DNA of 64,000 nt from Chiloscyllium plagiosum. Its lineage: Eukaryota. The notes below the pieces were generated by a model. The model saw only the letters and a list, made by a program, of their open reading frames with translations, was not told where the DNA came from and did no database searches. Positions 4,296-60,165 of this stretch are shown piece by piece (the stretch's first letter is position 1; each line of letters starts with the position of its first letter). Location of the stretch: contig NC_057710.1 in assembly GCF_004010195.1 (NCBI RefSeq), positions 78,365,960-78,429,959 on the forward strand, written 5' to 3'. Made by a program: the position numbers and the translations under genes.

Positions 4296-4331
4296 ATTCC
4301 TGAAGAAGGGCTTATGCCCGAAACGTCGATT
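4296..4331 (+). ncRNA. Minimal type I hammerhead ribozyme motif (PLE family A), core intact
   Basis: ATTC-CTGAAGA-A-GGGC TTAT GCCC-GAAAC-GTC-GATT. Catalytic core is conserved, stem II is GGGC/GCCC, stem III is the palindrome ACGT; predicted cut after 4327. Confidence 0.85.
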
Positions 4332-4544
4332 CTCCTGTTCCTTGGATGCTGCCTGACCTGCTGCGCTTTTCCAGCAACACATTTTCACCCAGCAATTGCA
4401 GGAGAATGGTAAAATAAGTCTTCATTAGATTGCATGTGATTTTGAGAGGAATTTGAAGATAATGCTGCTCCCAAGCAAACCTGCTCTCTTTCTTCTAGGT
4501 CGTAAAAGTCATGAATTTGGAAAGTACTAATAAAAGCCTGTCTC

Positions 4545-4695
4545 CACTCCTGCTGGTTGATAAATCAATTTCAAGTCATGACTTAAGTGGAAGATAATTT
4601 CTAATCAATCTGTTCAGTGATGCTATAAAACACCTCAGGAGCAGGTGGGTCAGACCTCCTGGCTCAGAGGGAGGGACACTACCACTGTGCCACAA
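4545..4695 (-). mobile_element. Degenerate tRNA-derived SINE 5' portion
   Basis: Minus strand begins TGTGGCACAGTGGTAGTGTCCCTCCCTCTGAGCCAGGAGG (A-box-like head). Confidence 0.5.
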
Positions 4696-5321
4696 AGGTC
4701 CTTACGATTTGTGTAATGGGAGTTAAGTTAATGTTAGAATCAGAGTTACATTGTCAGGTTCCTATATTTAAATATGGCTGATGTATCCATTAACCTGTTT
4801 TGGGTGACCTTGATGCTGTTGAAAACATCGGAGTCAAGGTGGTGAGAGCTGCTTTGGGGTGTGGGGATAGGTTGTGTTGGTGGGCAGGACGACCAGTATT
4901 GGTGGGAGCAGTAGAATTCTATGGAGCATCAATGAGCAGCACATGTCCCATCTTTTTAAACAAGTAACAATCTGTCCTGCTGTTCAAGTGGTGTTAAAAC
5001 ACATGCAAAACTTCCACATTTCCTGACATAGCATGATGGGATTATTACGTTTACTCACATTGGTTCACAACCAGGTTAAGGTATCAAAGATCAAATGAAG
5101 ATGTTGATTTCTGTATATTAAGAATAAAAAAAATTCTAACACCTCCCTCGCATGGTACAATCGATTAGTACAACCAGTCGCATAAGCAAAAGCAGCAGCT
5201 TTTAGCATGGTGCAATTTTGACACTTATCCTTAAACACAACACTACATAGACAGCCGCAAATTCACTCCAAACAGGACCAGTTATGGCTAATAGCAACCA
5301 ATATCACTGCCATCCTCAAAT

Positions 5322-5440
5322 GAACATAGAACATAGAACGTTACAGCACAGTACAGGCTCTTCTGCCCTCGATGTTGTGCCAACCTGTGAAAATAATCTG
5401 ATGCCCGTCTAACCTACACCATTTCAGTATTATCCATATG
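5322..5440 (-). mobile_element. CR1/HER1 3' end fragment
   Basis: (AGAACAT)n followed by TACAGCACAGTACAGGC..GCCCTCGATGTTG, the reverse complement of the 3' end at 225-337. Confidence 0.8.
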
Positions 5441-5544
5441 TAAATGTTACACCGCTAACTCTCTTCAGGTTGATGCAGCATTTATTTCGGATAATTTGCT
5501 GCCCACTGATATACCAACAGCAATTTGCCACTGTACAGAGCCAA

Positions 5545-5860
5545 GACAGTTGATTTAGATCAAAACTTATATTATAAAGTATTTGACACTGAGCCACATA
5601 AGTGGTTATTGGGACAAGTGACCCACTGTTTGATAGAAAAGGTCGACTTTAAAGAGGGTCCTAAAGAAGGAGCGATGATAGAGAGGCAATTAGGTCACGG
5701 GGGAAGAGCAGAACTGACTACCCAGGCAGCAGTTAAAGAGAAAGGTACCCATTGCAGAGTGAAATCACTCAAGGACACACAAAGATTAGAGTTGGAGGAA
5801 CATCGAGGTTTTGTCAGTTGGAAAATAGGGAAAAGCTATGGAGGGATTTGAAAATAAAAA
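5545..5860 (-). mobile_element. Degenerate L2-type LINE 3' fragment
   Basis: Similar by eye to the L2-type fragment at 10480-11010 (TATTTGACACTGAGCCACAT..., GGAGGGATTTGAAAATAA). Confidence 0.5.
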
Positions 5861-5874
5861 AAAATAAATTTAAT

Positions 5875-6005
5875 GAAAGCAAAATACTGCGGAAACTAGA
5901 AATCTGAAATAGAAACAGTAAATGTTTGAAAAATTCAACAGGCCTGGCAGCATCTTTGGAATGAAGTTCAGAGTTAATTCTTTGAGTTTGATATGGCTAT
6001 TAAAG
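5875..6005 (-). mobile_element. PLE terminal fragment (family B), degenerate HHR
   Basis: AAAGCAAAATACTGCGG..GAAATCTGAAA..CAGGCCTGGCAGCATCT..CAGAGTTAA matches the left arm at 42170-42310. Confidence 0.65.
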
Positions 6006-9000
6006 AGGGTAAATTTAAAATCAAGTATTTACTTGCCTGAGCAGGAGACAGTGTTGGGCTGTGTCTACTGTTATAACGTGAAGACAGGCAGCTGAATCAA
6101 ATCAGCCTTTCTAACTCTGTATTCATAACACTTTAAAAACAAAAACTTCAAAGATATTCAAAATTGTCCCCAGTGTTTCCTAACCAGACATTTTGAATAA
6201 CTAATCCCAAACTTTGCGAATAATCAATTCTTGACACCATTTTGTAGCTTTAACACAACAATCTATTAACTTAAGCAGAATGGTAGTCTGCTGAAAAAAA
6301 GAAGCTTCCCAATTCAATTTGCCTGTTTCTGGAAAAGAACTCATATTTGGATGCAGAGAGGGGCCTGGAGCTGTTGTCCAGCTGCTTTGACATGAGAAAC
6401 CCATGAGTTTGTCGATATCTCTTGAATGATTCCATTTGCAAAAGATCCCCAGCAGCTACCGCATGAGATCAGCGACATCCATCTTTGTGTGCCAGAATGT
6501 TAAACAACACCCATCCAAACATCACAAAACTCATGCTCCTACCTTCAAGAACTAAGAGGTTTTGGCCAAAAATGAATTCATGGTGGAATACATATCTTTC
6601 CTTTCACTAGTTACGTTTATCTGTATTTCAGGATACCGAGAGGGATAAACATATTTTCATGATACAAACAATACAATAAATGTTTTCATGTATTTTTACA
6701 GAAAAACTTATTTTTATAATAATTCAATAATTTTGCTATATTTTAAAAGCTTGATGGAACTTTATTTTAAATCTAATATGATAAAAGCATACAATCAGCC
6801 ATATGAAGAACATGGTGAAACAATTAAAATTATGTTGTGACCCATGGAATAGTGTGACTAGAGAAAGATGGTGCACTCCTTATATCTCATGTCCTAACAA
6901 TATACACAGAAAAGAAAGGAGTACTTTTTTTTTTACAGAGGTGGAAGGTAGGTGGTCATGCTGGTAGAGAATGTATATGGTTGCAGTTGTAGTTAAGAGT
7001 TGCAATGGATGATGGGTTTATGAAGCATCTGGATTACCCTCAGGCAGTATCTGCATAAACATAATCAGAAAACACCCGGTGGGAGGCAAACAAACACCTG
7101 TTGTAGCTTGAATGGGGTCGTTGTTGGTCATGGCAATGGATGGTGTACAATGAAGGACCTTATGGCTGCCTGTCGTCCCACATGCCTGTAGCTTCTTAAA
7201 GGTGTCTTTTGCTGCTTTCATTCTTCTCCAACCTCCATTCTTCCATTGCTGGCTGTCAAAAAGTTAACATCAAACTCTTTGCAAAACAAATGATCTATTG
7301 TGCTTACACACAAGAGCATTGAAATGGGTTTTGACCTTTTTCTTTGTATGAAATATTTGAAATATTTAAGTGGGAAGGTGAATTGTGACCAGTCTGAGCC
7401 TGGAATTTATGCAACCATTCTTCTCTATCAGTTGTGTAGAAAATGATAGCATTCTAGGCGTCAATGAAATTAAAAATCACATTAATGTATTAATTGGCTT
7501 ATAAAATATAAATGCATTATTCATTCAATATTACAATATTAACATTCAGTGTTGCATTGCATTAAATCTTACATTGAAAATACTTTTAAAATTCATTCTT
7601 AATATTTCATCCTCAGTAAGTATAATGTGATAGTAAACATTCTATTTTTCCAGAGCGCCCTCAGCAATAGATGGTGCCTTATATTTAATTAAACACTTTG
7701 GTTTGTATCCTTGGCATTTAGTGTCTTCAAGAACTACATATTATCTTAAATAATGATGACAAGTTGAAGTTAAGGTCAGAGTAGGAAGTTGTGTTAGATT
7801 GAACACAGTCATGCTTAGAATTTTAAATAGCCACCTAAAATTCAGAAATATATTCATAAATGTGAAATGCCACTGACAATTAGTGATTATTGGTTAATCG
7901 GGGTCAGACCCCAGATTGTGGTAATATCTACAGGCAAGTCTTAATGAATTTTTGAATTTATGGAATGAGTGCAATGTAGTCCTAATGGACCTTTTGCTGT
8001 AGTCATTGTCCATGATTAATTGGTTAAATCTCCAAAAGATTCCTCGTCCAGCACTGAGTTGTATATCACAGCTCCATATGGAATTATTAAAAAACTGTTC
8101 AACTTAATTTTATAGTCAGAGACCTTCATACATATGATATAGCCTAAACCATTGCCCTTTATATAACACCTCATGATTATCAGTGAGATGGAGAATTTGA
8201 TGCCAGTTTTGATTATAATTAAAAGGATAATGTTAGGTAAGTTTTGCGGAAAATGCAGAGTTAATTTTAGTTGTCATAAATCAAAGTTTGTATTTTTCAT
8301 CTTAATGTGTAAATAATCATGGTTAACCATGATAGAAACAGGAAGGAAGCAATCATAATTTAAATCTAATTATCTTTATTGATGATGCATGAATATTGAA
8401 TTAAAGGAAGTAATTTGAATATCTACAAAGGATATGTCTTTGAAGATTCAAATGTTGATACGTGATCCTTAATTCTAACTTCCATTGGTTAAACATATTA
8501 TTTGGTTTTTTTTCCCTCCTAATCCAAGCTGATTCATTTTGAATCTGGTCTTTTGGATAAGGAAAGGAAAATTGGTTGATTAGTAGACAGGCATAGGTGG
8601 ATTAAAACTGTTACTGTCAAGAGGTCATACAGTTCAGAGTTATGCAAGATAACACCAAATATTTGATTTGAACTGTTTGGCTTGATGTGGTCAACTAAGA
8701 GGCTATTTATGATCTCAAAATTATGAGCAGCTCAAAGAGCTGCCAAGTAACTTTTACAGTTGTAAACAGATTCACACAGGTTGTATTATTATTCTAATTA
8801 CAATACTGCGATGAATTAAAACCTCCTGGTCCATCTTTAAAATTATTGACAGTGAACCTATAACTGGAAGAAATCAGAATGCTTATTGGTTTTCCGAGTT
8901 GATTGTATAATTCAAAGTTACATCAGAATGAAGTTTAAGAAGAACATGCCACACACACACTGGAGGACTGCATTAATTTTGGAACATTAGATTTCTAGGT

Positions 9001-11010: not shown

Positions 11011-11014
11011 AGAA

Positions 11015-13570
11015 TATCCAGCTTTTGCCAGACTAAAGCTGTATAGACTTTCATCATAACATCCTTGTTCTTTTATTCAATGCCTTGACTAATAAAAGCA
11101 AGTATCCCATCTGCACTCTTATTATCACCTTACCCACCTGTCTTACTACCCTCAAGAATCTATGGAAAGCACATCAAGGTCCTTTGTGTATTCCCTTCCC
11201 TTGTTAGTAATGCCAAAATACATCACCTTATACTTTTCAGAATTAAATTTCACTTGCCACTGTTCTGCTCAGCTGACCAGTCCATCTGTGTTACCCTGTG
11301 ATGTAAGAGTTTTCCCCACACTGTTTGCCACAGCATTAATTTTTGTCATCTGTGAAGTTACTGATCGTACCTACCACAATCACGTCTAGATCATTAATGT
11401 ACATAACAAACAACAAGGGACCCAGCACTGAACTCTAGTATTTCATTGGACACAGGGTTCAAGTCATAAAAAAACTACCTTGGACCATCACTCTTTGCCT
11501 ACTGACATTAAGCCAATGTGGATCCAATTTGCCCAAGTGTCTAGGATCCAGTGGGTTGGTATCTTCTTGCAAAGTTTTCCATATGTGACCTTGACAAAAG
11601 CCTTACTAAAGTTCAGGTAAACAACATCAACTGCACTAACCTCAAGTCCCCTTCTTGAAAATGCCTGTTAGATGTGATCTCTCACTGACAAAGCCATGCT
11701 GACTCTCTATGATTCATCTTTGCCTCTCCAACTGAAGATTAATTTGGTCCCTCAGAATTTCTTTCTAATATAGGTCCCTATCATTGATACACATTTCACG
11801 GACTTGTAGTCTAATGGTTTATCTTTACTATTTTTCTTGAATAATGGCACAACATTAGCTGCCCCCTTGACCTCTGGCATATCTGCCAGGCCAGAGAATA
11901 CTTGAAAATTAATGTTAGTGGGCATGCAATCACGTATTTATTAAGTTTTAATTATTAATCTCTTGCCTCCCAAAATGGCAGTCTGTGATAAATTTAGTCT
12001 GGGCCTGGTGATTATTTAGCCCACCAAAACATCTATTATCTCCTTCTTCACAATGCCATTTTTCAAGTATACCATAGACCCTTCTTTATTTCTAAATCTA
12101 CATTATACTTTCCTATAGTCATGACAGATGCAAAGTACTCATTTAAAGTCTCATCTATATCCTCCAGCTCCAAACACACATTACCATTTTGCACCAAAAC
12201 TTTGGACTCTTAGTGTGGTTAGCAGCTTACCCCTAATATCCTAATAAAGCATCTAGGGATTGTCATTTACTTTAACTGTCAGCGTCTTTTTCATGCACCT
12301 TCTTTGCTCTCTTTATTTACTTCTTAAGGAACCTGCCATACTTCCTGAACTACCTATAGATCTTCCACTGTATCGTACCCTTGGTACGTGCCATAAGCTT
12401 CTCCCTAATTAATTTTGTACATCCTCTGACATTCAGGTTTCCAGGACATTTTGGTTCCACCCTTTACCTTTGCAGGAATATGCTCACTCTGCTCTCTTAC
12501 TGTTTCCTTTTTGAAAGACTCCCACTGCTTGTAGATAGATTTTCCAATAAGTATCTGCTTCAGTTCACTTAGGCCAGATCCAGTCTTAAAATAATCAAAT
12601 CAACCTTCTCAGAATTCAGAACCTTCACTTCCAAGTCCAGCTTGGTCCACTTCCAATGACTACCTTAATCTTATTGTGTTATGAGTGTGAGAAATTCTTT
12701 CCCACTGACAATTGTACCACAAATCTAGGTTAGTTCACTATATCATTTCAGTTGCATGGCACTGTAATATTTTACTATAAATTCCGTGTCTTATGGTCCT
12801 GCTTCACAGCTACCTGATGTGTAGCTAGTACTTCCAAATGAACTGTTGGACAAAAACCTGGTGTTGTGTGATTTTTAACATTGTCCACACCAGTCCAAAA
12901 CCGGCTCCTCCACATCAGTTAATCTTGGTGAAGTTGAAAACCAATCACATTATTACCTTGCTATTTTTACACTAACTTGAAATTTGTCGACATATTTATC
13001 TCTCTGGCTGCTGAGGGTCTTTAGTACAGCTAAAACTATGATTGCCCCTTTTTTTCATTTTACGTTCTAACCATATGGCCTCAACTGAGGAACATTTTAA
13101 GAAACATCTTTTCTTATTGCAGTAATTGTCTCCTTAATTAATATTGTGATGTCACCTTCTCTTTTACATCTATTTCCATCCTCCTTGAAGATTCTGTACC
13201 CTGGAATGTTGAGGTGCTGATCCAGCCCCTCCTTCAAACATCTCTCTGTGACAGCAATGATATCACATCCCTATGTGTTAATCAGTGTCCTCAAGACATC
13301 AGTCTTGCTCATAAGACTCCTTGCAATAAAATAAATGCAATCCAGATTTACCACGCTCCCTTTTGCCTTATTTTGCTCTGCCTTCCAGATTGACTTGTTT
13401 TTTTTACAACACATATCTGTACATCACGCCCTATTGTACCTCCACTCTGTATCATAACACCTTCCTAAATTAGGTTAAAGCTCCACCGATGCCACCAGCA
13501 AATCTCCCCACAAGGATATTGGACTTGTTGAAGGACAACTTCTACAGGTCCCACCTTCCCCAGAAATGCA
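11015..13570 (-). mobile_element. Long decayed CR1-clade LINE (ORF1 end, APE, RT remnants)
   Basis: Minus strand shows CR1 RT remnants (VDVVYLNFSKAFVKV at ~11590-11630, SVLGPL at ~11415-11432) with many stops and indels. Confidence 0.75.
12725..12917 (+). mobile_element. PLE terminal repeat (fourth family), HHR with stem II deleted, nested in the CR1
   Basis: CACAGCTAC-CTGATG..AGCTAG-TACTTCCAAATGAACTGTTGGAC..AACCTGGTGTTGTGTG..CCAGTCCAAAACCGGC interrupts the CR1 sequence. Family assignment is from recalled PLE termini. Confidence 0.55.
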
Positions 13571-13579
13571 CTTAATGAT

Positions 13580-13628
13580 CCACATTTCAGCTCTGATCGC
13601 CAGCATCTGCAGACCTCACTTTCTCCTA
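13580..13628 (+). mobile_element. PLE family A tail-only fragment
   Basis: CACATTTCAGCTCTGATCGCCAGCATCTGCAGACCTCACTTTCTCCTA matches 15862-15911. Confidence 0.75.
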
Positions 13629-15298: not shown

Positions 15299-15910
15299 TC
15301 GCCAGACCATGGCAACCATGCAGGTCCTTGGCCTGCTCCATCGCCAGACCATGGCAACCCCTGCAACCGCAAGAAATGAAAAATTTGCACCCACACCTCC
15401 CCCCTCACTTCCCTCCAAGTCCCCAAGGGATCCTTCCATATCCATTTCAAATTCACCTGCACCTCCACACACATCATTTACTGCATCCACTGCACCCGAT
15501 GTGGCCTCCTCTACATTGGGGAGACAGGCCGCCTACTTGCGGAACGTTTCAGAGAACACCTCTGGGACANNNNNNNNNNNNNNNNNNNNNNNNNNNNNNN
15601 NNNNNNNNNNNNNNNNNNNNNNNNNNNNNNNNNNNNNNNNNNNNNNNNNNNCTGTCCCCACCCCCTCTCCGGCCTATCACCCTCACCTTAACCTCCTTCC
15701 ACCTATCTCATTCCCAATGCCCCTCCCCCAAGTCCCTCCTCCCTACCTTTTATCTTAGCCTGCTTGGCACACCCTCTTCATTCCTGAAGAAGGGCTTATG
15801 CCCGAAACATCGATTCTCCTGCTCCTTGGATGCTGCCTGACCTGCTCCGCTTTTCCAGCAACACATTTTTCAGCTCTGATCTCCAGCATCTGCAGTCCTC
15901 ACTTTCTCCT
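15299..15910 (+). mobile_element. Penelope-like element (GIY-YIG to terminal repeat; spans an N gap)
   Basis: PCNRKK*KICTHTSPLTSLQ..FTCTSTHIIYCIHCTRCGLLYIGETGRLLAERFREHLWD. HHR at 15780-15815 (GTC decayed to ATC). 13-bp TSD AGATGTAACTCCA at 15286-15298 and 15911-15923. Confidence 0.92.
15570..15651. other. Assembly gap (N run)
   Basis: Run of N. Confidence 1.
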
Positions 15911-17420: not shown

Positions 17421-18385
17421 ATCCAAAAACGATGAACTGGGAGTGTTGGAAATCAGCAACAAAAATAGGTCCAGCGACCCTTCTTCTGTTCTGATATGAA
17501 ATGTTAACTGTCCTTTCTCTCTACACATACTGCCAGATGACATGCCATGTGAGAAAATGTGAGGTCATGCACTTTGGTAGGAAGAATAGAAGTATGGACT
17601 ATTTTCTAAGTGGGGAGAAAATTCAGAAATCGGAAGTTCAAACGTATTTTGGGAGTCCTAGTCCAGGATTCTCTTAAGATAAACTTGCAGGTTGAGTTGG
17701 TAGTTAGGAAAGCAATACAATGTTGTCAGTCATCTTGAGAGGACTATAATATAAAAGCAGGGAAGTATTTCTGAAGCTTTATTAGGCTCTGGTCAGACCA
17801 CATTTACAGTATTATGAGCAATTTTGGGCCCCATATCTTAGGAAAGATGAATTGGACCTGGAGTGGGTCCAGAGGAGGTTCCTGAGAATGATCCCAGGAA
17901 TGAAAGGCTTAACATATGTGGAATGTTTGAGGACTTTTGGACTATACTCGATGGAGTTTACAAGGTTGAGGGGGATCTAATTAAAACTTACTGAATGGCC
18001 TGGACAGAGTGGATGTTGGGAAGACGTTTCCGTTGGTAGGAGAGATGAGGACCCAAGGTCATAGCCTTAGAGTAAAGGGAAGACCTTTTAGAATGGAGAT
18101 AAGGAGAAACTTGTTTTGGCAGAGATTGGTGAATCTGTGAAATTCATTGCTGCAGAAGGCTATGGAGGCCAGATCATTGAGTGTCTTTAAAACTGAGATA
18201 AATAAGTTTTTGATTACCAAGGGGGATCAAAGATTACAGGGAGAAAGTGGGAAAATGGGGTTGAAAAGCCCATCCGCCATGATTGAATGGCAGAACGGAC
18301 TCAATGGGTTGAATGGCCGAATTTCTGATCCTGTCATATGATCTTAGATCCACTGAGTTTTTCCAGCAATTTCTGTTTTTGTTTG
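17421..18385. mobile_element. Inverted PLE terminal hairpin element (family B) split by a CR1 insertion
   Basis: 10-bp TSD TGGCAAAAGC at 17411-17420 and 18386-18395. HHR remnants GGTCCAGCGACCCTTCTTC (-) and GAAATGTTAACT (+). The tail resumes at ~18348 after the CR1. Confidence 0.7.
17540..18347 (+). mobile_element. CR1 LINE 3' portion
   Basis: KCEVMHFGRKNR..ALVRPHLQYYEQFWAPYLRKD..LEWVQRRFLRMIPGMKGL..., ending in a CR1 3'UTR. Confidence 0.9.
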
Positions 18386-20284
18386 TGGCAAAAGCTTGCT
18401 CCTGTTTGTAACTAAAGAGCTTAATACTAACCCAACTTTGAATTGCCTATGACTAATATATACATGTTGATTGAATCTTTTTGTACCATATTAGTCATAT
18501 TCAGGTATAATGTTATGTGAGATAGCATAGGTATAGCCTCATCAAGTACAAGTCCCTGCTAGAACCGAAAGCCCTTGTCCCATTGGTGGATCAGGAAGCT
18601 AAGTGGGCAGGGCAAGCACAATACATCTCCAATTAAGAGTGGTCACCACTAACAATACTGACCCTCGTCAGAGCATCCAGTCTATCAAGACTATAACTGG
18701 AATTGCATGCACCATGGGATTCTGTGGGGCCTGTTGGTTTGTTACTATTTATGTTAATCCAACACATGTTAAAGAACAGAATCATTGAGTGACTGCAGTA
18801 GAAGAAATTGATTGGCCCTTTATGTCCCCATCAGCTGTTTTCAAGAGCAAAGCCATTCTTCCCACTCTCCCACCATTTCCCATAGGCCTGCCATTTCTCA
18901 CTTGATCTAACTGAAGGAAAAAAAAACTACATGTGCAAGCCTGCAGTGCAGCAGCCTCGCTACCAATCAGCAATCTGCCCACAACGGTGGCAATTCATCA
19001 TGCATACTCGACAGTAAACAACACTTTGATTATATTTATTTCTCAGCTGGAAACATGTGTATGAATGGTTTACAGCTGAATGCAGCCTACTAACCTGCTA
19101 CGGGGAAAAAAATTCATAGAACCTGTCAGAGAAACGAACTCAACAGGGGTTGAGGTCAGAATTATATTGAGCTAAGCTGTTATGAGCAGATATACTTTAA
19201 CAGCCACTGTCAATGATGGACGCATTAAGAACAGGATATTTATTTTACCTATCTGCTTCTAAAATGAAAGGAACTTTGACATGAATGTACATTCTTGTGA
19301 ATGTAGACCTTGGTCTTTGCTGATTACTTACTGTTATCCAGCCTCCTGGAATGCAAAGCTCTGAATTTGTAATGCTTGAAAAATGTGCTCTGCCTCATTG
19401 CAACTCCTAATCGCTACAAGTGTACCCTTGTCCTAAAAATCACATCAGTATATTAGGGGTCACCTCATAAATACTTACTGCATGAAAGTCAATTACATTT
19501 CATCCTGTAGATAACAATAATTGGCTCTAAGATAACAAAATGAGTGTAGACAAAATAAATAGGGCAACTGCATTCCCAGACAAGCAATTTCTGTAGAAAG
19601 CATGGAGTTGCTTGAAAATTCTGGTGTTTGTAAATGAAATGTGCCAAGCAATTACATTTATATAAATGTAGAAGTAAAAAAAAACTTTTAGTAAGTACGA
19701 TAATGCTTTTCTATAAATAACACACTCTCAAATTATCTGAAGAAAAAAACTTTTTTCATGGAAACACAATGTGGAATAATGAATCATATGCAATGGCAAT
19801 CATGCTAATGAAGTCAAACCAAAATCTAGTTATAAGAAAAAGCAGGAATGAGAAAAGGTCTTTCTGCAAATTGAATCTCAAACCCAACGTAATACATTCT
19901 ATGCAAATAAATAACTATTTTGAACAATCTCAGTATTTGTGTTCTTATAGCTCAGCCAAGTAGATTATTCCAAATTGTGGAGATTGTGCATTTATTTCAA
20001 ATCAGCATTTTGAATGGGTTGTGTGCCAGGACTACCATTTGAGGATCAACATAGTGTGCTGTGCTAATACACACATACTTTACATGTTGTGAATCATGCC
20101 AGATGCCAACTTGGTAAAAGTCAATGTCAACATTTTACTCCTTAATGAAACAGGTTTTAATTGCTTTGTATTTGAAAATAAGATCCTGGACACCTGCATC
20201 TGATCCCTGCTGCAATGTTAGTTTGCCCTGAAACTAGCAGCACTCTCTCTGGTTGCATTCAAGAAAGAAAACGTTGCCATTAAA

Positions 20285-20770
20285 TAAAAAAAAAACAATA
20301 TAGCACAGAAACTAGCTTTTTAACCCAACAAGCCTGTGCTGATTCATGATGTTTTTTTAAAACTAGAGATCTTTTGTATCGAAACGGTCTATATTCCTCT
20401 ATTCTGTGCCAATTCATGCATTTACCTCTGGCAGCATATTCTAGGCAATTATTATGCTCTGTGTAAAACAAAAAGTGCCTCTCACATCTCTTTTAAACTT
20501 ATCTCTTTTATCTTAGACTGATGTCCCCTAGTTATTGACATTTCTCCCCTGGGACAAAAACTCTGAGTATTTAGTCTTGAGGAGGGGTCTCTGGATCCAA
20601 AAGGTTAACACTGATTTCCTCCACAGATGATCTCAGACCTGCTGAGCTTTTCCAATAATTTCTGTTTCTGTTTCTGACTATCCATTCCATTCTACGTGTT
20701 TCATAATCATGTAAACTTCCATCAGGTCGCCCCCTCCCCCACCCACCTCATCTTTCAACGTCAACTGAAA
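20285..20770 (-). mobile_element. Decayed CR1 3' fragment containing a PLE insertion
   Basis: CR1-like reverse strand (TGTCCCCTAGTTATTGACATTTCTCCCCTGGGACAAAA..CTTCCATCAGGTCGCCCCTC). Confidence 0.65.
20572..20672 (+). mobile_element. Short PLE family B HHR+tail insertion (degenerate)
   Basis: TTGAGGAGGGGTCTCTGGATCCAAAAGGTTAAC..CCACAGATG..GACCTGCTGAGCTTTTCC, flanked by imperfect repeats TCTGAGTAT / TCTGACTAT. Confidence 0.7.
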
Positions 20771-20771
20771 C

Positions 20772-20870
20772 AAACTGAGGGAGGGTCTTTGGACCTGAAA
20801 CATTAACTCTGGTTTTTCTTCACAGATGCTGCCAGACCTGCTGAGCTTTTCCAGCAGCTTCTGTTTTTAT
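20772..20870 (+). mobile_element. Short PLE family B HHR+tail insertion
   Basis: CTGAGGG-A-GGGTC TTTG GACCT-GAAAC-ATT-AACT, followed by CACAGATGCTGCCAGACCTGCTGAGCTTTTCCAGCA. Confidence 0.75.
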
Positions 20871-21165
20871 TACCACACCAGCCTCCCACATGCACATACA
20901 CACACAATATAATGCTCAACCTTCTTGAGGTCCACGATTTTACTAGCATTCAAGTCCCAACTCTTCCATCAATATCCCACACTTGGCATTCATCTTACTT
21001 ATTCTCTAAGTGTGATATTATCACAAACTCCTAGGCCCAAACTTTCTTTTTCCAGATTTCAGGAATCCAAGCCAATTGCATACCTGGAAACTAGAGTAGA
21101 TCTAGTTCAGCCTGTTACCATACTGCCATCTATATTATAATGAAATCTGAGATCCAAAATGGTGG

Positions 21166-21884: not shown

Positions 21885-22207
21885 CCACGGAGAATGGGTA
21901 AACTCCACACACAGAGTCCAGATTCGAGTGTTGCTGGAAAAGCACAGCAGGTCAGGCAGCATCTGAGGAGCTGGAAAATCGATGGCTCAGGAACAGAAGG
22001 GCTTTTGCCCGAGGCGTAGATTTTCCGGCTCCTCGGATGCTGCCTGACCTGCTGTGCTTTTCCAGCACCACTCTAGTCTGGACTCCAGCATTTGCAGCCC
22101 TTGTTTTTACCTAAACTCTACACACAGTCGCCCAAGTCTAGAATCAAACCTGGGTCCCTAGCACTGTGAGGCTGCAGTGTTAACCACTGGACCACCATGC
22201 TGCCCCA
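21885..22207 (-). mobile_element. HE1 SINE head fragment at the LTR/RT deletion junction, split by a PLE hairpin
   Basis: GAGAATGGGTAAACTCCACAC..CAGTCGCCCAAG..AACCTGGGTCCC..GCAGTGTTAACCACTGGACCACCATGCTGCCC. Confidence 0.8.
21915..22111. mobile_element. Hairpin PLE mini-element (inverted family A termini plus tail)
   Basis: Arm 21915-21980 is the reverse complement of ~22018-22085. HHR remnant GAAGGGCTTTTGCCCGAGGCGTAG. 16-bp TSD TAAACTC(C/T)ACACACAG at 21899-21914 and 22112-22127. Confidence 0.88.
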
Positions 22208-25183: not shown

Positions 25184-25724
25184 AGCGAGTTTTGAGAAGA
25201 TTTGTAGCTCTGGTTAAGGTTCTGAATGTAGGTTTGCTCGCTGAGCTGGAAGGTTCATTTTCAGACATTTTGTCACCATACTAGATAACATCTTCAATGA
25301 GCCTCCAAATGAGGCACTGGTGGTGTAGCCCGCTTTCTAATTACGTGTTTAGATTTCCTTGGGTTGGTGATGTAATTTCCTGTGGTGAAGCCATTTTATG
25401 GTGATGTCATTTCCTGTTCATTTTCTCAGGGGGTTGTAAATGTGATCCAAGTCAACATGATTGTTGATAGAGTTCTGGTTGGAATGCCATGCGTCTAGAA
25501 TTCTCAATCGTGTCTTTGTTTGGCTTGTCCTAGAATGGATGTGTTGTTCCAGTTGATGTCGCTACACGAAATGGCATCACCAATTCAAGGAAACCCAAAC
25601 ACATAAATAGAAAGTGGGCTACACTACCGGTGCTTCATCCGGAGGCTCACTGAAGATGTTACCTAGTATGGTGACAAAACATCTGAAGATGAATCTTCCG
25701 GCTCAGTGAGCAAACCTAATCCAG
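25184..25724 (-). mobile_element. Penelope-like element (family C) with inverted termini and GIY-YIG C-terminus
   Basis: 13-bp TSD AATGCAAATACCT (25171-25183, 25725-25737). ~25220-25375 is inverted relative to ~25570-25724. Middle reads INWNNTSILGQAKQRH..FLDAWHSNQNSIN on the minus strand. HHR-like motif in both arms. Confidence 0.88.
25646..25687 (+). ncRNA. Hammerhead motif (PLE family C), CpG-decayed; mirror copy at ~25260-25302 (-)
   Basis: CTCA-CTGAAGA-T-GTTACC TAGTAT GGTGAC-aAAAC-aTC-TGA. Stem II is GTTACC/GGTGAC, stem I is TCA/TGA; the G12 position is mutated. Confidence 0.7.
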
Positions 25725-34398: not shown

Positions 34399-34594
34399 TC
34401 ATCCCCTTCGTATGTCAACCCCATTTGTCTTTAATAAAAGAGACAACCACCCCACACCCAGAGGAAACAAAGGAATAGCAGGAATGAGTAATAAAAGGGA
34501 ATTTAATATCAAAGCAATGCCAAGTGGATAAAACCAACAACCAAGAGAGCAAAGGATATACCATTGCCCAATGTTTTTTTCTGACCCAGACCAT

Positions 34595-37845: not shown

Positions 37846-37894
37846 TTGGGTGCTTGGCAAATTAAGCTTGCCACTTGCTCCACGTGACCTTTTT

Positions 37895-42169: not shown

Positions 42170-42420
42170 CAAATAAAAGCAAAATGCTGCAGTTGCTTGA
42201 AATCTGAAACAAGCTCAGAGAATGTTGGAGAAACTCAGCAGGCCTAGCAATGACTGGGAAGTGAGAAACAGAGTTGACGTTTCAAATCTTGTGTGACTCT
42301 TCTTCAGAACTGAGTTCAGTTCTGAGGAAGAATCATGTCAGACTTAAAATCTTGGCTCTGTTTCTCACTCCATAGATGGTGCCAGCCTTGCAGTGTTTCC
42401 CAGCATTCCCTGTTTTTGAA
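42170..42420. mobile_element. Hairpin PLE mini-element (family B), back-to-back HHRs
   Basis: Arms are inverted about CAGAACTGAGTTCAGTTCTG (42305-42324). The minus-strand HHR is intact; the plus-strand HHR is decayed. Confidence 0.8.
42272..42311 (-). ncRNA. Minimal hammerhead ribozyme motif, core intact
   Basis: AGTT-CTGAAGA-A-GAGTC ACACAA GATTT-GAAAC-GTC-AACT. Stem I is perfect; stem II pairs fully with two G.U wobbles. Confidence 0.8.
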
Positions 42421-44859: not shown

Positions 44860-46160
44860 CTCAGGAATATGAACATCTATTCTTACCAGATTTCTCGTAT
44901 TGTACATAATGAAACTTACATTCACGTCTGTATTTAGACTGTCCCCCAATATCCGTTGCAAATCTACCAAATTCCGCAGATAAATTGGCTACACTCACAT
45001 TCTGCTTCCTACAAGGACTCCATTCCATTCTCCCAGTTTCCCCATCACCGTTGCCTCTGTTCCAATGATGCCATCTTCCAGGGCTTTTGACATGTCCTCT
45101 TTTTCTCCTCAATCAAGGCTTTTCACCCATTAGGGTCCTCAGCTGTGTCCAACCCAATTACCACACTTCGGCCTTCATCTCTTTCCAGAACAATGTGTTC
45201 TTCATGTCCTCATTTTCCACCATCAGTCTCCATATTCAACAGATCATCCTCTGGCAAATCCAGCACCTCTGTTGAATATCACAGCCATCATATCTTACCT
45301 CCACCTCTTGTCAGCATTTCACAGGAACCTTTCTCTCTGAGACACTCATATGCACTCTTATGATCTCCTAACACTTTGTTATGTCCCAAAATTGTACATT
45401 CCCATGTAATTGTAGAAGGTGTAACACTTGCCCTTTCACCTCCTCCCTGCTCACCATACTCAAAATACACCTTCCAGATGAAGTAAAATTGTACTTGTAC
45501 TTTTTCCAATCTAGTCAGCTGCATTCACGGCTCACAATGTGGTGTACTCTACACTGGGGGAAGCCTAAATGTAAACTGGGTGACTGCTTTGCAAAACACC
45601 CTTGGTCAATTCATGGGTATGATCCCATTCTTCCAGCTTCTTGCCATTTGATCGCACTACCTTGTGCTTAAAGTGAACATTTCTATCCTAGGCCTGTGGC
45701 AGTGCTCCACCAAAACCCAGTGCAATCTGAAGGAAGAGCACTTCTCTTTCCACTTAGGCAGTTTATAGGCTTCAGGACTCGACTTTGAGTTTAATCATTT
45801 CAGACACGAATGCTGTCCTGCATTTAGATTATACCATCTCCTCATACTGCTGTCCTGATGGCATGGGTTTGCTCGGATCAAAGGTGACCTATTTTCTACT
45901 ATTCAACCCTATCATTAACAATGGCTATTTTGCATCTACAAGTCTCCTTTCCTACCATTAGCATTCCCTTTATCTTGTGCTTTAGATGTCCTCAGCATCT
46001 GTTCTACTCATTCTTCTTCCTCTTTGTCAACTGCAAAGCAATCATCAATTTCATGCCAACTTCAGTTCCTAAAGAAGAGTAATTTTCGTCAAAATGCTAA
46101 CTCTGTTTCTCTTTCCACAGACGCAGCTAGACCTGCTGAATTACTCCAACAGTTTCTATC
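44860..46160 (+). mobile_element. Decayed PLE (RT thumb, Zn finger, GIY-YIG, terminal repeat)
   Basis: IPFSQF (~45022-45040); FPCNCRRCNTCPFTS; KCKLGDCFAKH..LPASCHL; SGLDFEFNHFR. Family B tail with a decayed HHR at ~46062-46103. Confidence 0.8.
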
Positions 46161-46311
46161 TTTAAATGCATCTGTGCTAATTAAAAAAAAATGCTACATG
46201 CAAAGAATAAAGGGAGGGTAATAATGGCAGCTAGTTCTCAAGAACACTATTGATTTGCAATTTCCTCCAAGACATCTGCTATTATAGTTATAATAAATAA
46301 AAATTCACTGT

Positions 46312-50392: not shown

Positions 50393-50394
50393 TT

Positions 50395-55580: not shown

Positions 55581-55737
55581 TGCAATTCCTAATAGTACCA
55601 TATGGATTTTCTTTTCTCACATAATGCCAGTTGATGAGCAAGAAGCAGCAGTAAACCTTAAATCAGTGACAAACCGCAAATATTCCTCAAGTAACTGTGT
55701 TTTCAGCAACACTGCATCGACACAGCAATGATATGAA

Positions 55738-56285
55738 GTAGATTTACATTTAAATGGCACCTTTCCCAAACACCTGATCTTGCAAAGAACTTTACAGCCA
55801 ATAAAGTGATTTTTTTTTAAGCATAGTGTAATGTGGGAAGCTCAACAACCAATTTGCATCCTGCAAGGCTTCGCAAATAGTCATGTGATCATGGCTGAAA
55901 ATGTGTTGCTGGAAAAGCGCAGCAGGTCAGGCAGCATCCAAGGAGCAGGAGAATTGATGTTTCGGGCATGAGCCCTTCTTCATGATATGTGATCATGACC
56001 AAGTAATCTGTCATGATGTCAGTGGAGGGATGAATATTGGCCAACACACCAGGATAATTCTGCTGGCTTTTGAAGTAGTGCAATGGAATCTTTTATATCC
56101 ACTTAAGAGGTTAGGCAGGTGTCATTTCAAAGTCTCATCCAAAAGGTGACTCTTTCAACAATCTGGCATTCCATTAGGACAGGATTGTATATTTCTGAGC
56201 CTGAACTGTTGTGTTTAAACCCGAGAGAGCAACTTGAATGCACAACCTTCACTTGCAGTGGTGAGTACCACTGCTGACTGCTACC
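55738..56285 (-). mobile_element. Deu-domain SINE, near full length, containing a PLE insertion
   Basis: Reverse complement of a Deu SINE (TGTAATGTGGGAAG..CCAATTTGCA..GAGGGATGAATATTGGCCAACACACCAGG..TCTCATCCAAAAG). Confidence 0.7.
55894..55986 (-). mobile_element. Short PLE family A HHR+tail insertion
   Basis: 11-bp TSD ATGTGATCATG (55883-55893, 55987-55997). Minus strand starts ATCaTGAAGA-A-GGGC TCAT GCCC-GAAAC-aTC. Confidence 0.9.
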
Positions 56286-56672: not shown

Positions 56673-56707
56673 TTCCTGATGAAGGGCTTACGCCCGAAAC
56701 GTCGATT
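56673..56707 (+). ncRNA. Minimal type I hammerhead ribozyme motif, canonical core
   Basis: TTC-CTGATGA-A-GGGC TTAC GCCC-GAAAC-GTC-GATT; predicted cut after 56703. Confidence 0.88.
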
Positions 56708-56784
56708 TCCCTGCTCCTCGGATGCTGCCTTTCCAGCACCATACTCTTGACTCTGATCTCCAGCATCGGCAGTCCTCACTTTCT
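56673..56784 (+). mobile_element. 112-bp PLE family A HHR+tail insertion
   Basis: Perfect 14-bp TSD GCAATTCAAGGTCG (56659-56672, 56785-56798). The insertion begins at the HHR 5' arm. Confidence 0.93.
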
Positions 56785-57520
56785 GCAATTCAAGGTCGGT
56801 ATGATTTATAAAACATCCACATCTGAAAGCGTTCAGACTCTGCAGGCAGCGAGAACTGGTGCCAATAGGAAAAAGTGACCATTCACCTGCAAGGCTATCT
56901 GTAAAATCTTTATGTAACTCCCGAACTCCATCTCCCCTTGAAAACCCCCACTTGGCACTCACCTCTGTTGCATGGTGATCTTCTAATGTGCTCCTTTCAC
57001 TCAACACCCACTCCTTCCTCTTCTCAGTTCACAAAGAGGCCATTCCAAAAACAAAGACAAAATATGGTTTAGTATTGACTCCCTGCAGGTGTTCCTTCCA
57101 GCTGCCTAGGGAAAATGGGATGTTCTTTTCCCCAGAGCTGAGAATAGGAGACATCCTACTTTATCAAGGCAGCCTATATGGAGATCCTGAACACCAGTGG
57201 TATCCAGTGCCACCAATCGATGAACTAACCTTCTCAATGCAGTCAGTGTGAGTGGCAATGTGGCGTCGCATCAAAGGGTTTTTCCTGAGAGTATTAAGCC
57301 AGAGACATTTGCAAATGAGGAAAAAAGGCTCATTTTCACTATCATATGGCAAACGTAGTGCATGATAAGGTAATGGGATACCATTATATGGCAAAGATAA
57401 AGCATGGGCATGCAAGTGGGCAAGGGAGGTAGGTGTCTCTTCATGTGTTAATATCACATCAATTTGTCAAACAGAATAAAGAGACAGCCAATGCTAAGGA
57501 TGGGGCCAAGGCTGGTGGAA

Positions 57521-58251
57521 GAATGTGTGTTGCTGGAAAAGCACAGCATGTCAGGCAGCACCCGAGGAGCAGGAAAATTGATGTTTCGGGCTGGAGCCCT
57601 TCATCAGGAATGATGCTGGGAGCTACATTGGGAGACTGAACTCCTCTATATTGGTGAGACTAGACACCTTCTCGCAGAACATTTTAGAGAACATCTCCAG
57701 GACATCCGCACCAATCAACCACACCACCTCGCGGCCGAACATTTCAACTCCTCCTCCCACTCTGCCAAGAACATGCAGGTCCTGGGCTTCCTCCATCACC
57801 ACTCCCTCGCCACCCAATGTCTGGAGGAAGAATGCCTCATCTTCCGTCTCGGGACCCTTTAACCCCATGGCATCAATGTGGACTTCACACAGTTTCCTCA
57901 TTTTTCCTCCCCCCACCTTATTCCAGTTCAAAACTCCCAGCTCAGCACCATCTTCATGACCTGTCCCACTTATGAATCTTCCTTCCCACCTATCTGCTCC
58001 ACCCTCTTTACCAACCTGTCACCTTTACCCCCCACCTCCATCCACCTATTGCACTCTCAGCTACCTTCTCCCCAGATCCACACCCCCTCCCATTTATCTC
58101 TCCATCCCCGAGGCTCCCAGACACATTCCTGATGAAGGGCTCTGGCCCAAAACATCAATTTTCCTGCTACTCAAATGCTGCCTGACCTGTTGTGTTTTTC
58201 TAACAACACATTCTCAACTCTGATCTCCGGCATCTGCAGTCCTCACTGTCT
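57521..58251 (+). mobile_element. PLE with inverted 5' terminal repeat, GIY-YIG fragment and 3' terminal repeat
   Basis: LLYIGETRHLLAEHFREHLQDIRTNQPHHLAAEHFNSSSHSAKNMQVLG..LEEECLIFRLG. HHR on - at ~57576-57612 and on + at ~58125-58160. TSD GCTG(G/A)TGGAA at 57511-57520 and 58252-58261. Confidence 0.92.
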
Positions 58252-59944
58252 GCTGATGGAAAAGTGGCTGAGCTGAGAGTAATCACTTTGGAGAAGGAGG
58301 CCTTAGAGTTTTCAGATAATAGGGAGGGCATTGCAGATAATAAGGTTGGACCAGTCAAACAGAAGAGTGGGTCATTAGCATGTTAAAATGCATATTTGTC
58401 TGTTAAGCTAAGTTGCACATTAATGTCTTTCTGTAAATCATTCTACCAGACTGAGAGGCTAAAGTGGATCGAGCTGTAAGATGATTCCAGTTCTGATAAA
58501 GATGAATGACAGCCAGAAGGTGCACCGCCATCTGCCTTTCCCTCAATCTACACCAGTATTGTTACACTCCGAGGCCTTTCCAAGGATCTGGGTTTAGAAC
58601 TGAAGGCCCATGCATATGATCACTTCACTGGCTTGAGTGTTACAGCAGTGCTTGTGTCATCGGGGGATGTCATCTCCTTTCACCTTACATGGAGAGCATC
58701 CACTCCTCTTGGTATAGTGAGGGGTTGAGGTTGTAGAGAGTGAGGCAGCTGGAGATGGAGGCTGGCAGAGATGGATGTACAACCCAGATGGCATAGGTTT
58801 ACAGATGACAGTCAGGCAGGTACATGATTCATGAGTAAAATGAGTGATGTTATCCTGGTCTGTCTCTGCATGGCCCTGGCACCTGAATTGGTGAATCGTG
58901 AAGCTGAATTCGTGCTTTTTAGACAGATGTCAACAGATTTTACAGACCTCTTTGTGAACGGATGCAGAGCTTATTAGATGACTTTTCAGATGTGGAGCTA
59001 ATAAGTGAACTCAGTGAATTGGTAATTTCAGTTAAAGTACTTTTCGGAAATATTTGCAAACTAAACTGAAGACTTATAGTATCAATGAGCTGCAGAAGGA
59101 CAGATTTAAATACAATCTAATCTTTACAAGTCAACAAACTCAACTGTTGACAAAATCACTCGAACACTCAGGTATAGCACGACATATTGAAGGGCCAAGA
59201 AAAAACGCATCTCAGTCATTTTTTTTAATGCATGTGGCATTAAATATCATTGGCAGAGGTAGTGCCCGAGAGTATAAAAACTGAGGACCATCCCAACCAA
59301 ACTACATCCAAGTAGTAACTTCCAGCTTCAATAAAGACCTTCTGATATCCTGCCAGAGGGAGAAACATGCAGTGATCAACAAACCAGAAGCTATGTGCAC
59401 AGCAGGAAAAAAAGTGGTGACTGCATGTTCACATTGTCAATTATATGGAAAATATCAATATCATCATAACATTTTAAGTGTTTGCAGAACTTCTAATTAA
59501 TTTGCCCTTCAGTAAACTGGAGGCTATTCATTATTGCCGAAGACTGACTCTTGGGCAAATTGGTGTGCTCACTCTGTGAATTCTAAAAAGCATGTATCCA
59601 CAGACATGGGGAGCTATGACAAAACCTATAAGTATAAGTCTTTCAGCATGTAATCATTCACCAATGAGTCAATTGTTTGTCCTAAACTTCAGTATTACCG
59701 ATAAAAGATGCAATTCATGAAGCTATTCCTCTTTCATCCACCAGGACAGTTCGGAAAAATAGCAAATCATGAGGAAAACCTGCAATTCTGCTCCATAACA
59801 GTTAAAGACCAAGTAATTAGCAAGTGATTGGTAGATATGTTACCACAGAGAATGCCCAAATTAATGACAATCGACGATTAACTGCCAGATTTTGTTTAAA
59901 TTTAAAATCATTCAAGTTGGCTCTGATTGGTCAAAGACATTGTC

Positions 59945-60165
59945 AAAATGTGTGGTGCTGGAAAAGCACAGCAGGTCAGACAGCATCGAAGGAGTACGAG
60001 AGTCGACGTTTCAAGCAAAAACCCTTCATCACGAATTCCTGATGAAGAATGTATGCCTGAAACTTGGACTCTCCTGCTCCTCAGATGCTGCCTGACCTGC
60101 TGCATCTTTCCAGCACCACACTTTGCAAGTCTGACTCTCCAACATTTGCCGTCCTCATTTCTTCC
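59945..60165. mobile_element. Hairpin PLE mini-element (family A), HHR-derived motif on both strands
   Basis: ~170-bp imperfect palindrome centred on GAATTC (60033-60038) plus a 3' tail. TSD TTGGTCAA(A)GACATTG at 59927-59942 and 60166-60180. Confidence 0.9.

What the first reader, a model, noticed from the sequence alone, without database searches (positions are those of the whole stretch)
4296..60070. Hammerhead ribozyme motifs throughout the window, with stem covariation across three PLE families
Seen in sequence: about 18 intact or decayed CTGANGA-(extra nt)-stem II-GAAAC-GTH motifs. Family A has stem II GGGC/GCCC and stem I ATTC/GATT (4296, 15780, 56673, 57576-, 58125). Family B has stem II AGGTC/GACCT or GAGTC/GATTT and stem I AGTT/AACT (37745, 42272-). 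Family C has stem II GTTACC/GGTGAC and stem I TCA/TGA (25646, 25260-). The core is constant while both stems change in a compensatory way. Established knowledge: PLE terminal repeats carry minimal type I HHRs whose palindromic ACGU stem III favours dimeric cleavage. Inference: this lineage holds a large, probably unannotated HHR population, and 4296, 42272(-) and 56673 may still be cleavage-competent.
Basis: partly seen in the sequence, partly recalled or inferred. Interest (0 to 1): 0.75.

Follow-up and report, generated by a model that had tools for sequence, protein, structure and literature searches.

The report
Worn hammerheads in shark Penelope retroelements
The window holds 21 remnants of a small hammerhead-ribozyme motif, only 3 of them undamaged, in the end repeats of Penelope-like jumping genes of what is likely a shark; this is a known arrangement, and the motif likely cuts RNA only in the active parent elements while these scattered copies decay.

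Summary
The motifs are real. All nine cited coordinates check out. I count 21 remnants: 11 of family A, 8 of B, 2 of C. A strict descriptor gives 5 hits against 0 in 40 shuffles. They match the published consensus for minimal type I hammerheads of Penelope-like elements (PMC4209133). A and B sit behind Neptune-type RT/GIY-YIG remnants; the closest named RT relatives are from carpet sharks.

Corrections: only 3 of 21 keep both core and ACGU palindrome. Compensatory changes occur between families, not within A (0 of 7 pairs). Family A stem I has a U·U mismatch. Copies decay by CpG loss at the same rate as neighbouring DNA. The three intact copies lack a nearby intact partner, and 42272(-) is predicted buried in a long hairpin, so cleavage in place is unlikely. 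A weak RNA test showed no ends at the cut.

Side result: 11 of 14 short copies begin 3-9 nt before the core, none at the cut, so the copied RNA was likely uncut. The scan has reported this kind repeatedly elsewhere in this genome. New member of a known kind.

The parts
3239..4386 (+). 5'-truncated Neptune-type PLE insertion, family A: RT piece (YIDD), 736-nt N run at 3489-4224, 3' pLTR without tail; 14-bp target duplication at 3225-3238 and 4387-4400
4296..4331 (+). Family A hammerhead, core and ACGT intact; C3 4300, predicted cut after 4327; stem II GGGC/GCCC; stem I 2 bp + U·U + 1 bp
5909..6010 (-). Heavily decayed family B pLTR; hammerhead barely readable
13570..13626 (+). Family A tail-only fragment, no hammerhead (not counted among the 21)
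   Evidence: (D10)
15299..15910 (+). 5'-truncated family A PLE: remnant of the CX2-5CxxC linker (one Cys now a stop), GIY-YIG piece (Pfam PF01541), 82-nt N run, pLTR with tail; 13-15-bp target duplication at 15286 and 15911
15780..15815 (+). Family A hammerhead, core boxes intact, palindrome broken (G16.2>A)
17460..17545 (.). Family B1 hammerhead split by an inversion: 5' half (C3 at 17488) on the - strand, GAAA half on the + strand from about 17498
18335..18387 (+). Family B distal fragment, no hammerhead (not counted)
   Evidence: (D14)
20573..20672 (+). Family B1 pLTR, hammerhead broken (C3>T, G12>A, C15.2>G)
20771..20872 (+). Family B1 pLTR, hammerhead broken (A9>G, G16.2>A, stem I lost)
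21915..22111 (.). Head-to-head pair of family A pLTRs in a 16-bp target duplication (21899, 22112); - copy lacks the middle of the hammerhead, + copy starts inside the core; tail on the + copy
25184..25724 (.). Family C inverted pair in a 13-bp target duplication (25171, 25725); the - strand carries a short frameshifted stretch resembling a Poseidon-type endonuclease end (recalled motif, not confirmed by search)
   Evidence: (I4)
25260..25301 (-). Family C hammerhead, broken (C3>T, G12>A, C15.2>T); 6-bp stem II, 3-bp stem I
25646..25687 (+). Family C hammerhead, broken (G12>A, G16.2>A)
34270..34400 (+). Solo family A pLTR with tail, hammerhead broken (first box altered, G12>A, C15.2>T); no target duplication found
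37743..37846 (+). Solo family B1 pLTR; hammerhead 37745-37782 with core boxes intact, palindrome broken, closing pair A-U instead of G-C
42170..42420 (.). Head-to-head pair of family B2 pLTRs, predicted long RNA hairpin; no target duplication found
42272..42311 (-). Family B2 hammerhead, core and ACGT intact; stem II has two G-U pairs including 10.1-11.1; predicted cut after 42276
42318..42357 (+). Family B2 hammerhead, broken (G12>A, C15.2>T, G16.2>C)
44980..46164 (+). Old PLE body (RT thumb, CxxxxCxxC linker, GIY-YIG remnant; tblastn E 7e-13) ending in a decayed family B2 hammerhead at 46065-46102: ties family B to a Neptune-type PLE
55894..55986 (-). Solo family A pLTR without tail in an 11-13-bp target duplication; hammerhead broken (C3>A, G16.2>A)
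56673..56784 (+). Solo family A pLTR with tail in a 14-bp target duplication (56659, 56785); starts 3 nt before C3; hammerhead core and ACGT intact, predicted cut after 56703
57521..58251 (.). Family A inverted unit: - strand pLTR (hammerhead 57576-57611, G16.2>A, first stem I pair lost), GIY-YIG piece 57641-57895 (+), + strand pLTR with tail (hammerhead 58125-58160, G12>A, G16.2>A); weak 10-bp target duplication
59943..60165 (.). Head-to-head family A pair joined at the stem I strands (hammerheads 60001-60036 on -, C3>G; 60035-60070 on +, stem II and cut triplet broken); tail on the + copy; target duplication on both sides

Best explanation
The motifs are minimal type I hammerheads carried in the terminal repeats of Penelope-like retrotransposons; they likely cut RNA only as protein-assisted dimers in tandem transcripts of active parent elements, and the copies in this window are likely inert passengers that decay like the DNA around them. 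Shown: the motif and its place at the head of the pLTR, behind RT and GIY-YIG remnants for families A and B; target duplications, inverted pairs and one-sided tails; CpG-driven decay. Inferred: selection acts in the parent lineages, because family and subfamily differences fall in N7, loop II and paired stem positions and spare the core. Inferred from other PLEs: two hammerheads on one RNA pair through ACGU to make helix III, and the element's own protein helps them fold. Inferred: most short copies were reverse-transcribed from uncut RNA, since they keep the whole motif and start 3-9 nt upstream of it.
For: Matches the published consensus NNN CUGANGAH GNNNNN...NNNNNC GAAAN-palindrome-NUH NNN (PMC4209133 supplement file 2 part 2). 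RT piece is 83-90% identical to Chiloscyllium punctatum proteins; P0003 matches both the RT at 3226 and the endonuclease at 15287-15568; distant relatives carry RVT_1 plus C-terminal GIY-YIG (2 of 4 proteins scanned). Pfam GIY-YIG at 15395-15568, at the curated cut-off. Target duplications scoring 11 or more in 6 of 16 zones, against 1 of 150 random zone pairs. Inverted copies with a tail at one end match PMC8557442 section 6. Decay: 19 of 48 changes at the 3 CpG core sites against 7 of 160 at the other 10 (p 6e-9); non-CpG core plus stem II 7 of 128 against 11 of 160 downstream (p 0.81, 8 gap-free A copies of 11). Genome-wide reads agree: G12>A 8.6% of depth, a downstream CpG 10.1% (run X1). 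Constraint at source: loop II and N7 vary in 13 of 40 cells against 7 of 128 (p 3e-5); the 10 listed variants inside 4296-4331 are 5 in N7 or loop II, 4 CpG transitions and 1 at the U·U mismatch (31 rows of that table were hidden). Between family majorities the stems change on both sides and keep pairing at 2.1-1.1, 2.2-1.2, 2.3-1.3, 10.2-11.2 and 10.4-11.4. In the Anolis PLE the hammerhead cut only with protein, and uncut RNA was the main insertion substrate (PMC11167929 parts 1-2).
Against: No cleavage was measured, so catalysis in the parents rests on analogy. The double-hammerhead fold is 12-16 kcal/mol above the best predicted dimer for all three intact copies (the model ignores core and tertiary energies). 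Family A stem I (2 bp + mismatch + 1 bp) is weaker than in most published examples, so family A may cut poorly even as a dimer. The block downstream of the motif is also shared between A and B, so conservation is not unique to the hammerhead. The neutrality test has little power (8 copies). No intact parent element or tandem is in the window. Eight of nine natural Xenopus dimers did not cut in vitro (preprint 10.64898/2026.07.22.740005, part 3). Family C has no confirmed protein link.
Confidence: 0.72

Rival explanations
1. The fold is kept for something other than cutting: it marks the start of the element's RNA and serves as a protein-binding, promoter or translation element, with catalysis vestigial in these families.
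For: None of 14 short copies starts at the cut; 11 start 3-9 nt before C3 (by eye). 4296 is the top listed 5' loose end in all three informative runs. Hammerhead mutants did not affect insertion in vitro (PMC11167929). Naiad PLEs spread without canonical hammerheads (PMC8557442 passages).
Against: The positions spared across families are the catalytic ones, including G8, G12, U16.1 and a non-G at 17. The homologous Anolis motif does cut, with C3G/G8C rescue.
Confidence: 0.15
2. The short copies are a non-autonomous, retrozyme- or SINE-like family that spreads from its own tandem transcripts by dimer cleavage and circularisation.
For: Solo copies of about 93-112 nt sit in their own target duplications (55894-55986, 56673-56784). 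Joints from 4387 back to 4296 in 18 contigs of X1 and 13 of X13 point to head-to-tail pLTR tandems elsewhere. Retrozymes are reported for one chondrichthyan.
Against: No head-to-tail tandem in the window; all close pairs are head-to-head. Solo copies are 94-95% like the pLTRs attached to PLE bodies (I12-I13). A circle cut at C17 would not give starts just before C3. Tandem joints are rare among about 80,000 contigs, though counting was incomplete for X1.
Confidence: 0.1
3. Some dispersed copies (4296, 56673, 42272-) are working ribozymes that cut host transcripts and are kept by host selection.
For: These three keep core, palindrome and stem II. Family A sequence is present in RNA: 2,770 reads in run X21, both orientations.
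Against: Intactness tracks youth: 4296 and 56673 have exact 14-bp target duplications. No intact partner nearby. Predicted stem I pairing probability is 0.05 or less in all three. 42272(-) is predicted sequestered (z -5.9). 96% of the RNA reads run on into unlike sequence, so they come from other copies, and no pile-up of ends was listed (a polyA single-cell library, hence a weak test).
Confidence: 0.05
4. The motifs are chance matches to a short, relaxed pattern.
For: CTGANGA alone is only modestly enriched (62 against 39.6). A relaxed pattern without stems picks up many unrelated sites (20 hits). Rfam finds no hammerhead. Isolated motifs mostly fold no better than shuffles.
Against: 5 strict hits against 0 in 40 shuffles, all inside repeat families at the same place in the pLTR.
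Confidence: 0.01

Closest known systems
Minimal type I hammerheads (min-HHR) in pLTRs of metazoan Penelope-like elements (Cervera and de la Pena 2014, PMC4209133; main text parts 1-2 of 4 and supplement file 2 part 2 of 3 read)
   Same: CUGANGA, one extra nucleotide before stem II, G10.1-C11.1, no helix III, palindromic 15.2-16.2 (C-G), short stem I, thousands of solo copies in consensus families, close pairs on opposite strands.
   Different: No cartilaginous fish found in the supplement files searched (file 1 not searched). Family A has a 4-bp stem II and an interrupted stem I, at the small end of the published range.
Neptune-clade endonuclease-bearing PLEs (PMC8557442; passages and section 6 read)
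   Same: [quoted passage not shown]
   Different: Only fragments here; no full ORF and no partial tandem in the window. No tree was built, so Nematis, which shares the linker, is not formally excluded.
Poseidon element of Anolis carolinensis, PAc (PMC11167929; parts 1-2 of 4 read)
   Same: Two alternative 3' ends (with and without tail), insertions on both strands, no RNA reads ending at the cut site.
   Different: PAc is Poseidon-clade and was tested in vitro; A and B are Neptune-type and untested. Family C may be the Poseidon-type member, from a recalled motif only.
Animal non-LTR retrozymes (bioRxiv 10.64898/2026.07.22.740005; parts 1 and 3 of 5 and passages read; its supplements could not be seen)
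   Same: pLTR-derived, non-coding, type I hammerhead, reported in one chondrichthyan.
   Different: Retrozymes are defined by head-to-tail tandems with a hammerhead in each unit; none in this window.

Membership tests
PLE min-HHR (type I) | Core boxes CUGANGA and GAAA, with UH at the cut | tested here: met
   Complete with palindrome in 3 of 16 registered copies; majority state at 12 of 13 positions, 16.2 tied G 7 / A 7
PLE min-HHR (type I) | Extra nucleotide between A9 and 10.1; G10.1-C11.1 closing pair | tested here: met
   Extra base in 16 of 16; G-C in 10, G-U in 5, A-U in 1
PLE min-HHR (type I) | No helix III; palindromic 15.1-16.1 | tested here: met
   ACGT in 4 of 16; most others are CpG-type transitions of it
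PLE min-HHR (type I) | Stem I closes the motif, about 3-5 bp in published cases | tested here: inconclusive
   B 4 bp, C 3 bp, A 2 bp + U·U + 1 bp; a variant that repairs the mismatch has 40% of depth in organism B run X13 and 3.5% in X1
PLE min-HHR (type I) | Located in the pLTR of a PLE | tested here: met
   A: behind RT and GIY-YIG pieces. B: behind the remnant at 44980-45804. C: architecture only
PLE min-HHR (type I) | Self-cleavage as a dimer | not testable with these tools
   Folding models do not favour the active dimer; RNA-end test weak and negative
Neptune-type EN+ PLE (families A, B) | PLE-type RT with C-terminal GIY-YIG in one ORF | tested here: met
   Shown through homologues: P0003 matches both window pieces; P0091 and P0093 carry RVT_1 and GIY-YIG. 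No single intact ORF in the window
Neptune-type EN+ PLE (families A, B) | CX2-5CxxC linker before the GIY-YIG | tested here: met
   CNRKK*KIC at about 15362-15388; CNCRRCNTC at about 45405; definition from PMC8557442
Neptune-type EN+ PLE (families A, B) | Placement in an RT phylogeny, to separate Neptune from Nematis | not tested
   No reference PLE set on hand
Penelope/Poseidon PLE (family C) | Protein homology to a Poseidon endonuclease | tested here: inconclusive
   Short frameshifted remnant; no candidate, a weak search; the resemblance is recalled
Penelope/Poseidon PLE (family C) | Inverted pair in one target duplication with a tail at one end | tested here: met
   13-bp exact duplication, 160-nt arms at 84%
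Non-LTR retrozyme | At least two head-to-tail units, each with a complete hammerhead | tested here: not met
   None in the window; such joints exist in a few contigs elsewhere
Rfam hammerhead families | Match to a covariance model | tested here: not met
   No hammerhead family among 4 matches at E<=1; this does not lower the claim that it works like one

The most novel reading that the evidence does not exclude
The thousands of short copies are a fossil map of the transposing RNA. Reverse transcription starts inside the first pLTR and runs to a fixed RNA 5' end 3-9 nt before the hammerhead core, so the template is uncut; head-to-head pairs record two such copies made on the two nicked strands and joined at that end. 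The hammerhead would then not make the template's ends at all, but switch the RNA between an uncut form that transposes and a cut form with another fate. With tens of thousands of copies in two organisms, sharks would make the open question of what PLE hammerheads are for directly testable.
Probability: 0.3. Interest if true: 0.55.

Novelty: new member of a known kind. Interest (0 to 1): 0.25.

Why it matters
As an annotation it extends a known class to a shark-type genome, where pLTR remnants cover about 3% of this window (2,051 bases) and are invisible to Rfam. It also warns against counting motif hits as active ribozymes: 18 of 21 are broken. The more useful point is mechanistic. The role of PLE hammerheads is described as unclear in PMC8557442, and the clustering of copy starts just upstream of the core, never at the cut, is in vivo evidence consistent with the in vitro result that uncut RNA is the insertion substrate (PMC11167929).

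Tried and rejected
No whole genome is held for this window, so no genome-wide descriptor search or subfamily alignment was possible. Rfam scan: no hammerhead. A MAFFT alignment across families misplaced family C and was not used; pairs were counted in core-anchored register instead. In one search the 46069 row was one base out of register, and the rows 34279, 21992, 20578, 46070 and 6008 were; one search replaces the pair and core counts. The frame I gave for the 57660 piece was wrong, so its blank Pfam result means nothing; the right frame is shown. Pfam found nothing on the 87-aa RT piece. The protein search for family C found no candidate. Sequencing runs: no RNA holder listed, which is no evidence; run X22 laid 0 reads and is no test. 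Two extra descriptor hits at relaxed settings (45142-, 34377-) were rejected: they are outside the hammerhead position of any family. No target duplication was found for family B zones (best scores 0-7; one score of 10 in a much wider zone, not at an edge) or for 34279 and 13570. A splice acceptor just before the core was considered, as in Drosophila virilis Penelope, but solo B copies start upstream of the AG, so it was left unsupported. The 2016-17 dimer-cleavage paper by Lunse et al. is not held; I saw only its title and a summary in the review PMC6765202 (passages). Not-in-print checks: 1 paper, where 'shark' refers to the motif's shape; 0; 1; 0. Repbase and Dfam could not be searched, so 'unannotated' is unproven.

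Full report
Observation. A strict structural descriptor finds 5 sites against 0 in each of 40 dinucleotide shuffles, and 7 against a mean of 0.075 with one core mismatch. Rfam finds no hammerhead.

State of the copies. Sixteen of the 21 can be set in register without gaps. Damage is concentrated at CpG sites: 19 of 48 cells at G12, C15.2 and G16.2, against 7 of 160 at the other ten positions (p 6e-9). In 8 gap-free family A copies, non-CpG core and stem II positions changed as often as downstream DNA (7 of 128 against 11 of 160, p 0.81), while loop II and N7 changed far more (13 of 40, p 3e-5). Reads from all family A copies agree: G12>A has 8.6% of depth and a downstream CpG 10.1% in run X1. 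So inserted copies decay without visible selection, and the excess variation in free positions is best read as subfamily differences fixed in parent elements (inference).

Covariation. Within family A no pair of 7 changes on both sides (10 copies). Within family B 2 of 9 do; one is the B1/B2 split and one a single copy (covariation score reached by 3 of 500 shuffles, which ignore relatedness). Between family majorities, pairing is kept while both sides change at 2.1-1.1 (C-G, U-A, A-U), 2.2-1.2 (U-A, U-A, C-G), 2.3-1.3 (U·U, G-C, U-A), 10.2-11.2 (G-C, G-C, A-U, U-A) and 10.4-11.4 (C-G, U-A, A-U). This is a real pattern but rests on four lineages, one with two copies.

What carries them. The 4296 motif ends an insertion that starts with an RT piece (YIDD) 83-90% identical to Chiloscyllium punctatum proteins, with further hits from Rhincodon, Stegostoma, Hypanus and Leucoraja (95 hits of 114 candidates); the host is therefore likely a carpet shark (inference). 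The 15780 and 58125 motifs follow GIY-YIG pieces, the first preceded by a worn CX2-5CxxC linker, which PMC8557442 gives as the mark of Neptune and Nematis. One shark protein matches both the RT and the endonuclease piece. Family B is tied to an older body of the same type at 44980-45804 and shares a downstream block with A. Family C sits in an inverted pair with a short remnant that resembles a Poseidon endonuclease end; that resemblance is recalled and a protein search found nothing. Target duplications score 11 or more in 6 of 16 zones examined, against 1 of 150 random zone pairs; two more are weak. Five pairs are inverted; in four the tail lies on one copy only and in the fifth (21915-22111) it is clear on the + copy. 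This is the layout drawn in PMC8557442 Fig. 2. The N runs at 3489-4224 and 15570-15651 hide part of two bodies; the long ORFs that span them are open only because of the Ns.

Abundance and RNA. On the 240-base stretch 4225-4464, 80,037 contigs of run X1 (organism A) and 72,660 of run X13 (organism B) were laid, nearly all on the repeat part. The tool states that depth is not a copy number, so I give none. RNA run X21 gave 2,770 reads in both orientations, 96% running on into unlike sequence, as expected for copies embedded in other transcripts. No place with many molecule ends was listed. The library is polyA single-cell, so this is a weak test; X22 gave no reads.

Can the three intact copies cut? 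Minimal hammerheads lack helix III and are thought to need a second copy on the same RNA (PMC4209133, where a monomer was inactive and dimers weak; review PMC6765202). The nearest same-strand family partners are 11.5 kb, 1.45 kb and 24.8 kb away, and all are damaged. Stem II forms in the two A copies (probability 0.93-1.00) but stem I does not (0.05 or less), and the double-hammerhead fold lies 12-16 kcal/mol above the best dimer fold for the short constructs (the model omits core and tertiary energies). 42272(-) is predicted to pair with its inverted twin in a -51 kcal/mol hairpin (z -5.9). Cleavage in place is unlikely; cleavage of an engineered dimer remains open.

Where copies start. Of 14 copies not joined to a PLE body and with a readable edge, 11 begin 3-9 nt upstream of C3, one at about -16, one at about -90 and one inside the core; none begins at the cut, about 28 nt downstream of C3 (by eye except where a target duplication fixes the edge, as at 56673). 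Left out were 5 body-linked copies and 2 unclear ones (20775, 6005). Position 4296 is the top listed 5' loose end in X21 (201 reads), X1 (308 contigs) and X13 (322), with low agreement among the flanks (567 rows hidden). Earlier scan reports on other parts of this genome gave me this lead. It fits the Anolis result that reverse transcription starts inside the RNA and uses uncut template (PMC11167929). A transcription start, a splice-derived end or a stall of the RT could each explain the edge; I could not separate them.

Mechanism. Most likely (0.72): the hammerhead is maintained in active parent elements, where two copies in a tandem transcript pair through ACGU and cut after C17 with help from the element's protein; dispersed copies are inert and decay. 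Rivals: a non-catalytic role at the RNA start (0.15), an independent retrozyme-like family (0.10), active host-selected copies (0.05), chance (0.01).

Comparison and verdict. The motifs fit the 2014 consensus for PLE minimal hammerheads, a class reported in thousands of copies in coelacanth and Xenopus. I found no paper describing these shark families, but a 2026 preprint reports hammerhead retrozymes in one chondrichthyan; its supplements, file 1 of the 2014 supplement, Repbase and Dfam could not be seen and may list them. The scan has followed up this kind many times in this genome (147 notes fit the look-up, 8 shown). New member of a known kind; interest 0.25.

Noticed in passing
window 17460-17545: A family B1 hammerhead is split by an inversion exactly between stem II and the GAAA box; the inverted 5' piece ends about 6 nt before C3, the same edge as the solo copies.
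   Followed up: partly
window 4345-4378 and equivalents in families A and B: A block downstream of the hammerhead is shared by A and B and holds a small inverted repeat (TGCTG ... CAGCA); in tailed copies part of it can pair with the tail. It may be the protein-binding or RT-start structure.
   Followed up: no
joints on 4225-4464: Joints from 4387 back to 4296 (18 contigs in X1, 13 in X13) suggest head-to-tail pLTR tandems elsewhere; joints from about 4327-4331 back to 4296 suggest short tandem duplications of the hammerhead itself.
   Followed up: no
window 4330: A T>A variant that turns family A stem I into a perfect 4-bp helix has 40% of depth in organism B run X13, 3.5% in organism A run X1 and about 9% of RNA reads in X21.
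   Followed up: partly
protein P0072: A protein labelled Proteus mirabilis, on a 474-base contig, is 100% identical over 55% of the shark-type RT piece: likely a contaminated bacterial assembly.
   Followed up: no
protein P0051: An Amblyraja radiata model named nicotinamide riboside kinase 1 isoform X1 matches the PLE RT piece at 69%: likely a gene model that swallowed a retroelement.
   Followed up: no
window 13729-13944 (-): A further GIY-YIG remnant (tblastn E 2e-21) with no hammerhead found next to it.
   Followed up: partly
window 29734-30968: 114-nt inverted arms (88%) flank about 1 kb; not a pLTR family. A LINE-like endonuclease/RT remnant lies at 31400-31885 (-).
   Followed up: no
window 21915-22111: The head-to-head pair appears to have inserted into another short repeat (the family of D2/I1), whose sequence continues on both sides.
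   Followed up: no
window 296-641: Exact 173-nt tandem duplication next to a (TGTTCTA)n tract; possibly recent or an assembly artefact.
   Followed up: no
window 50628-50692: A near-perfect 64-nt hairpin inside a repeat gives sub-threshold Rfam microRNA matches; treated as chance.
   Followed up: no
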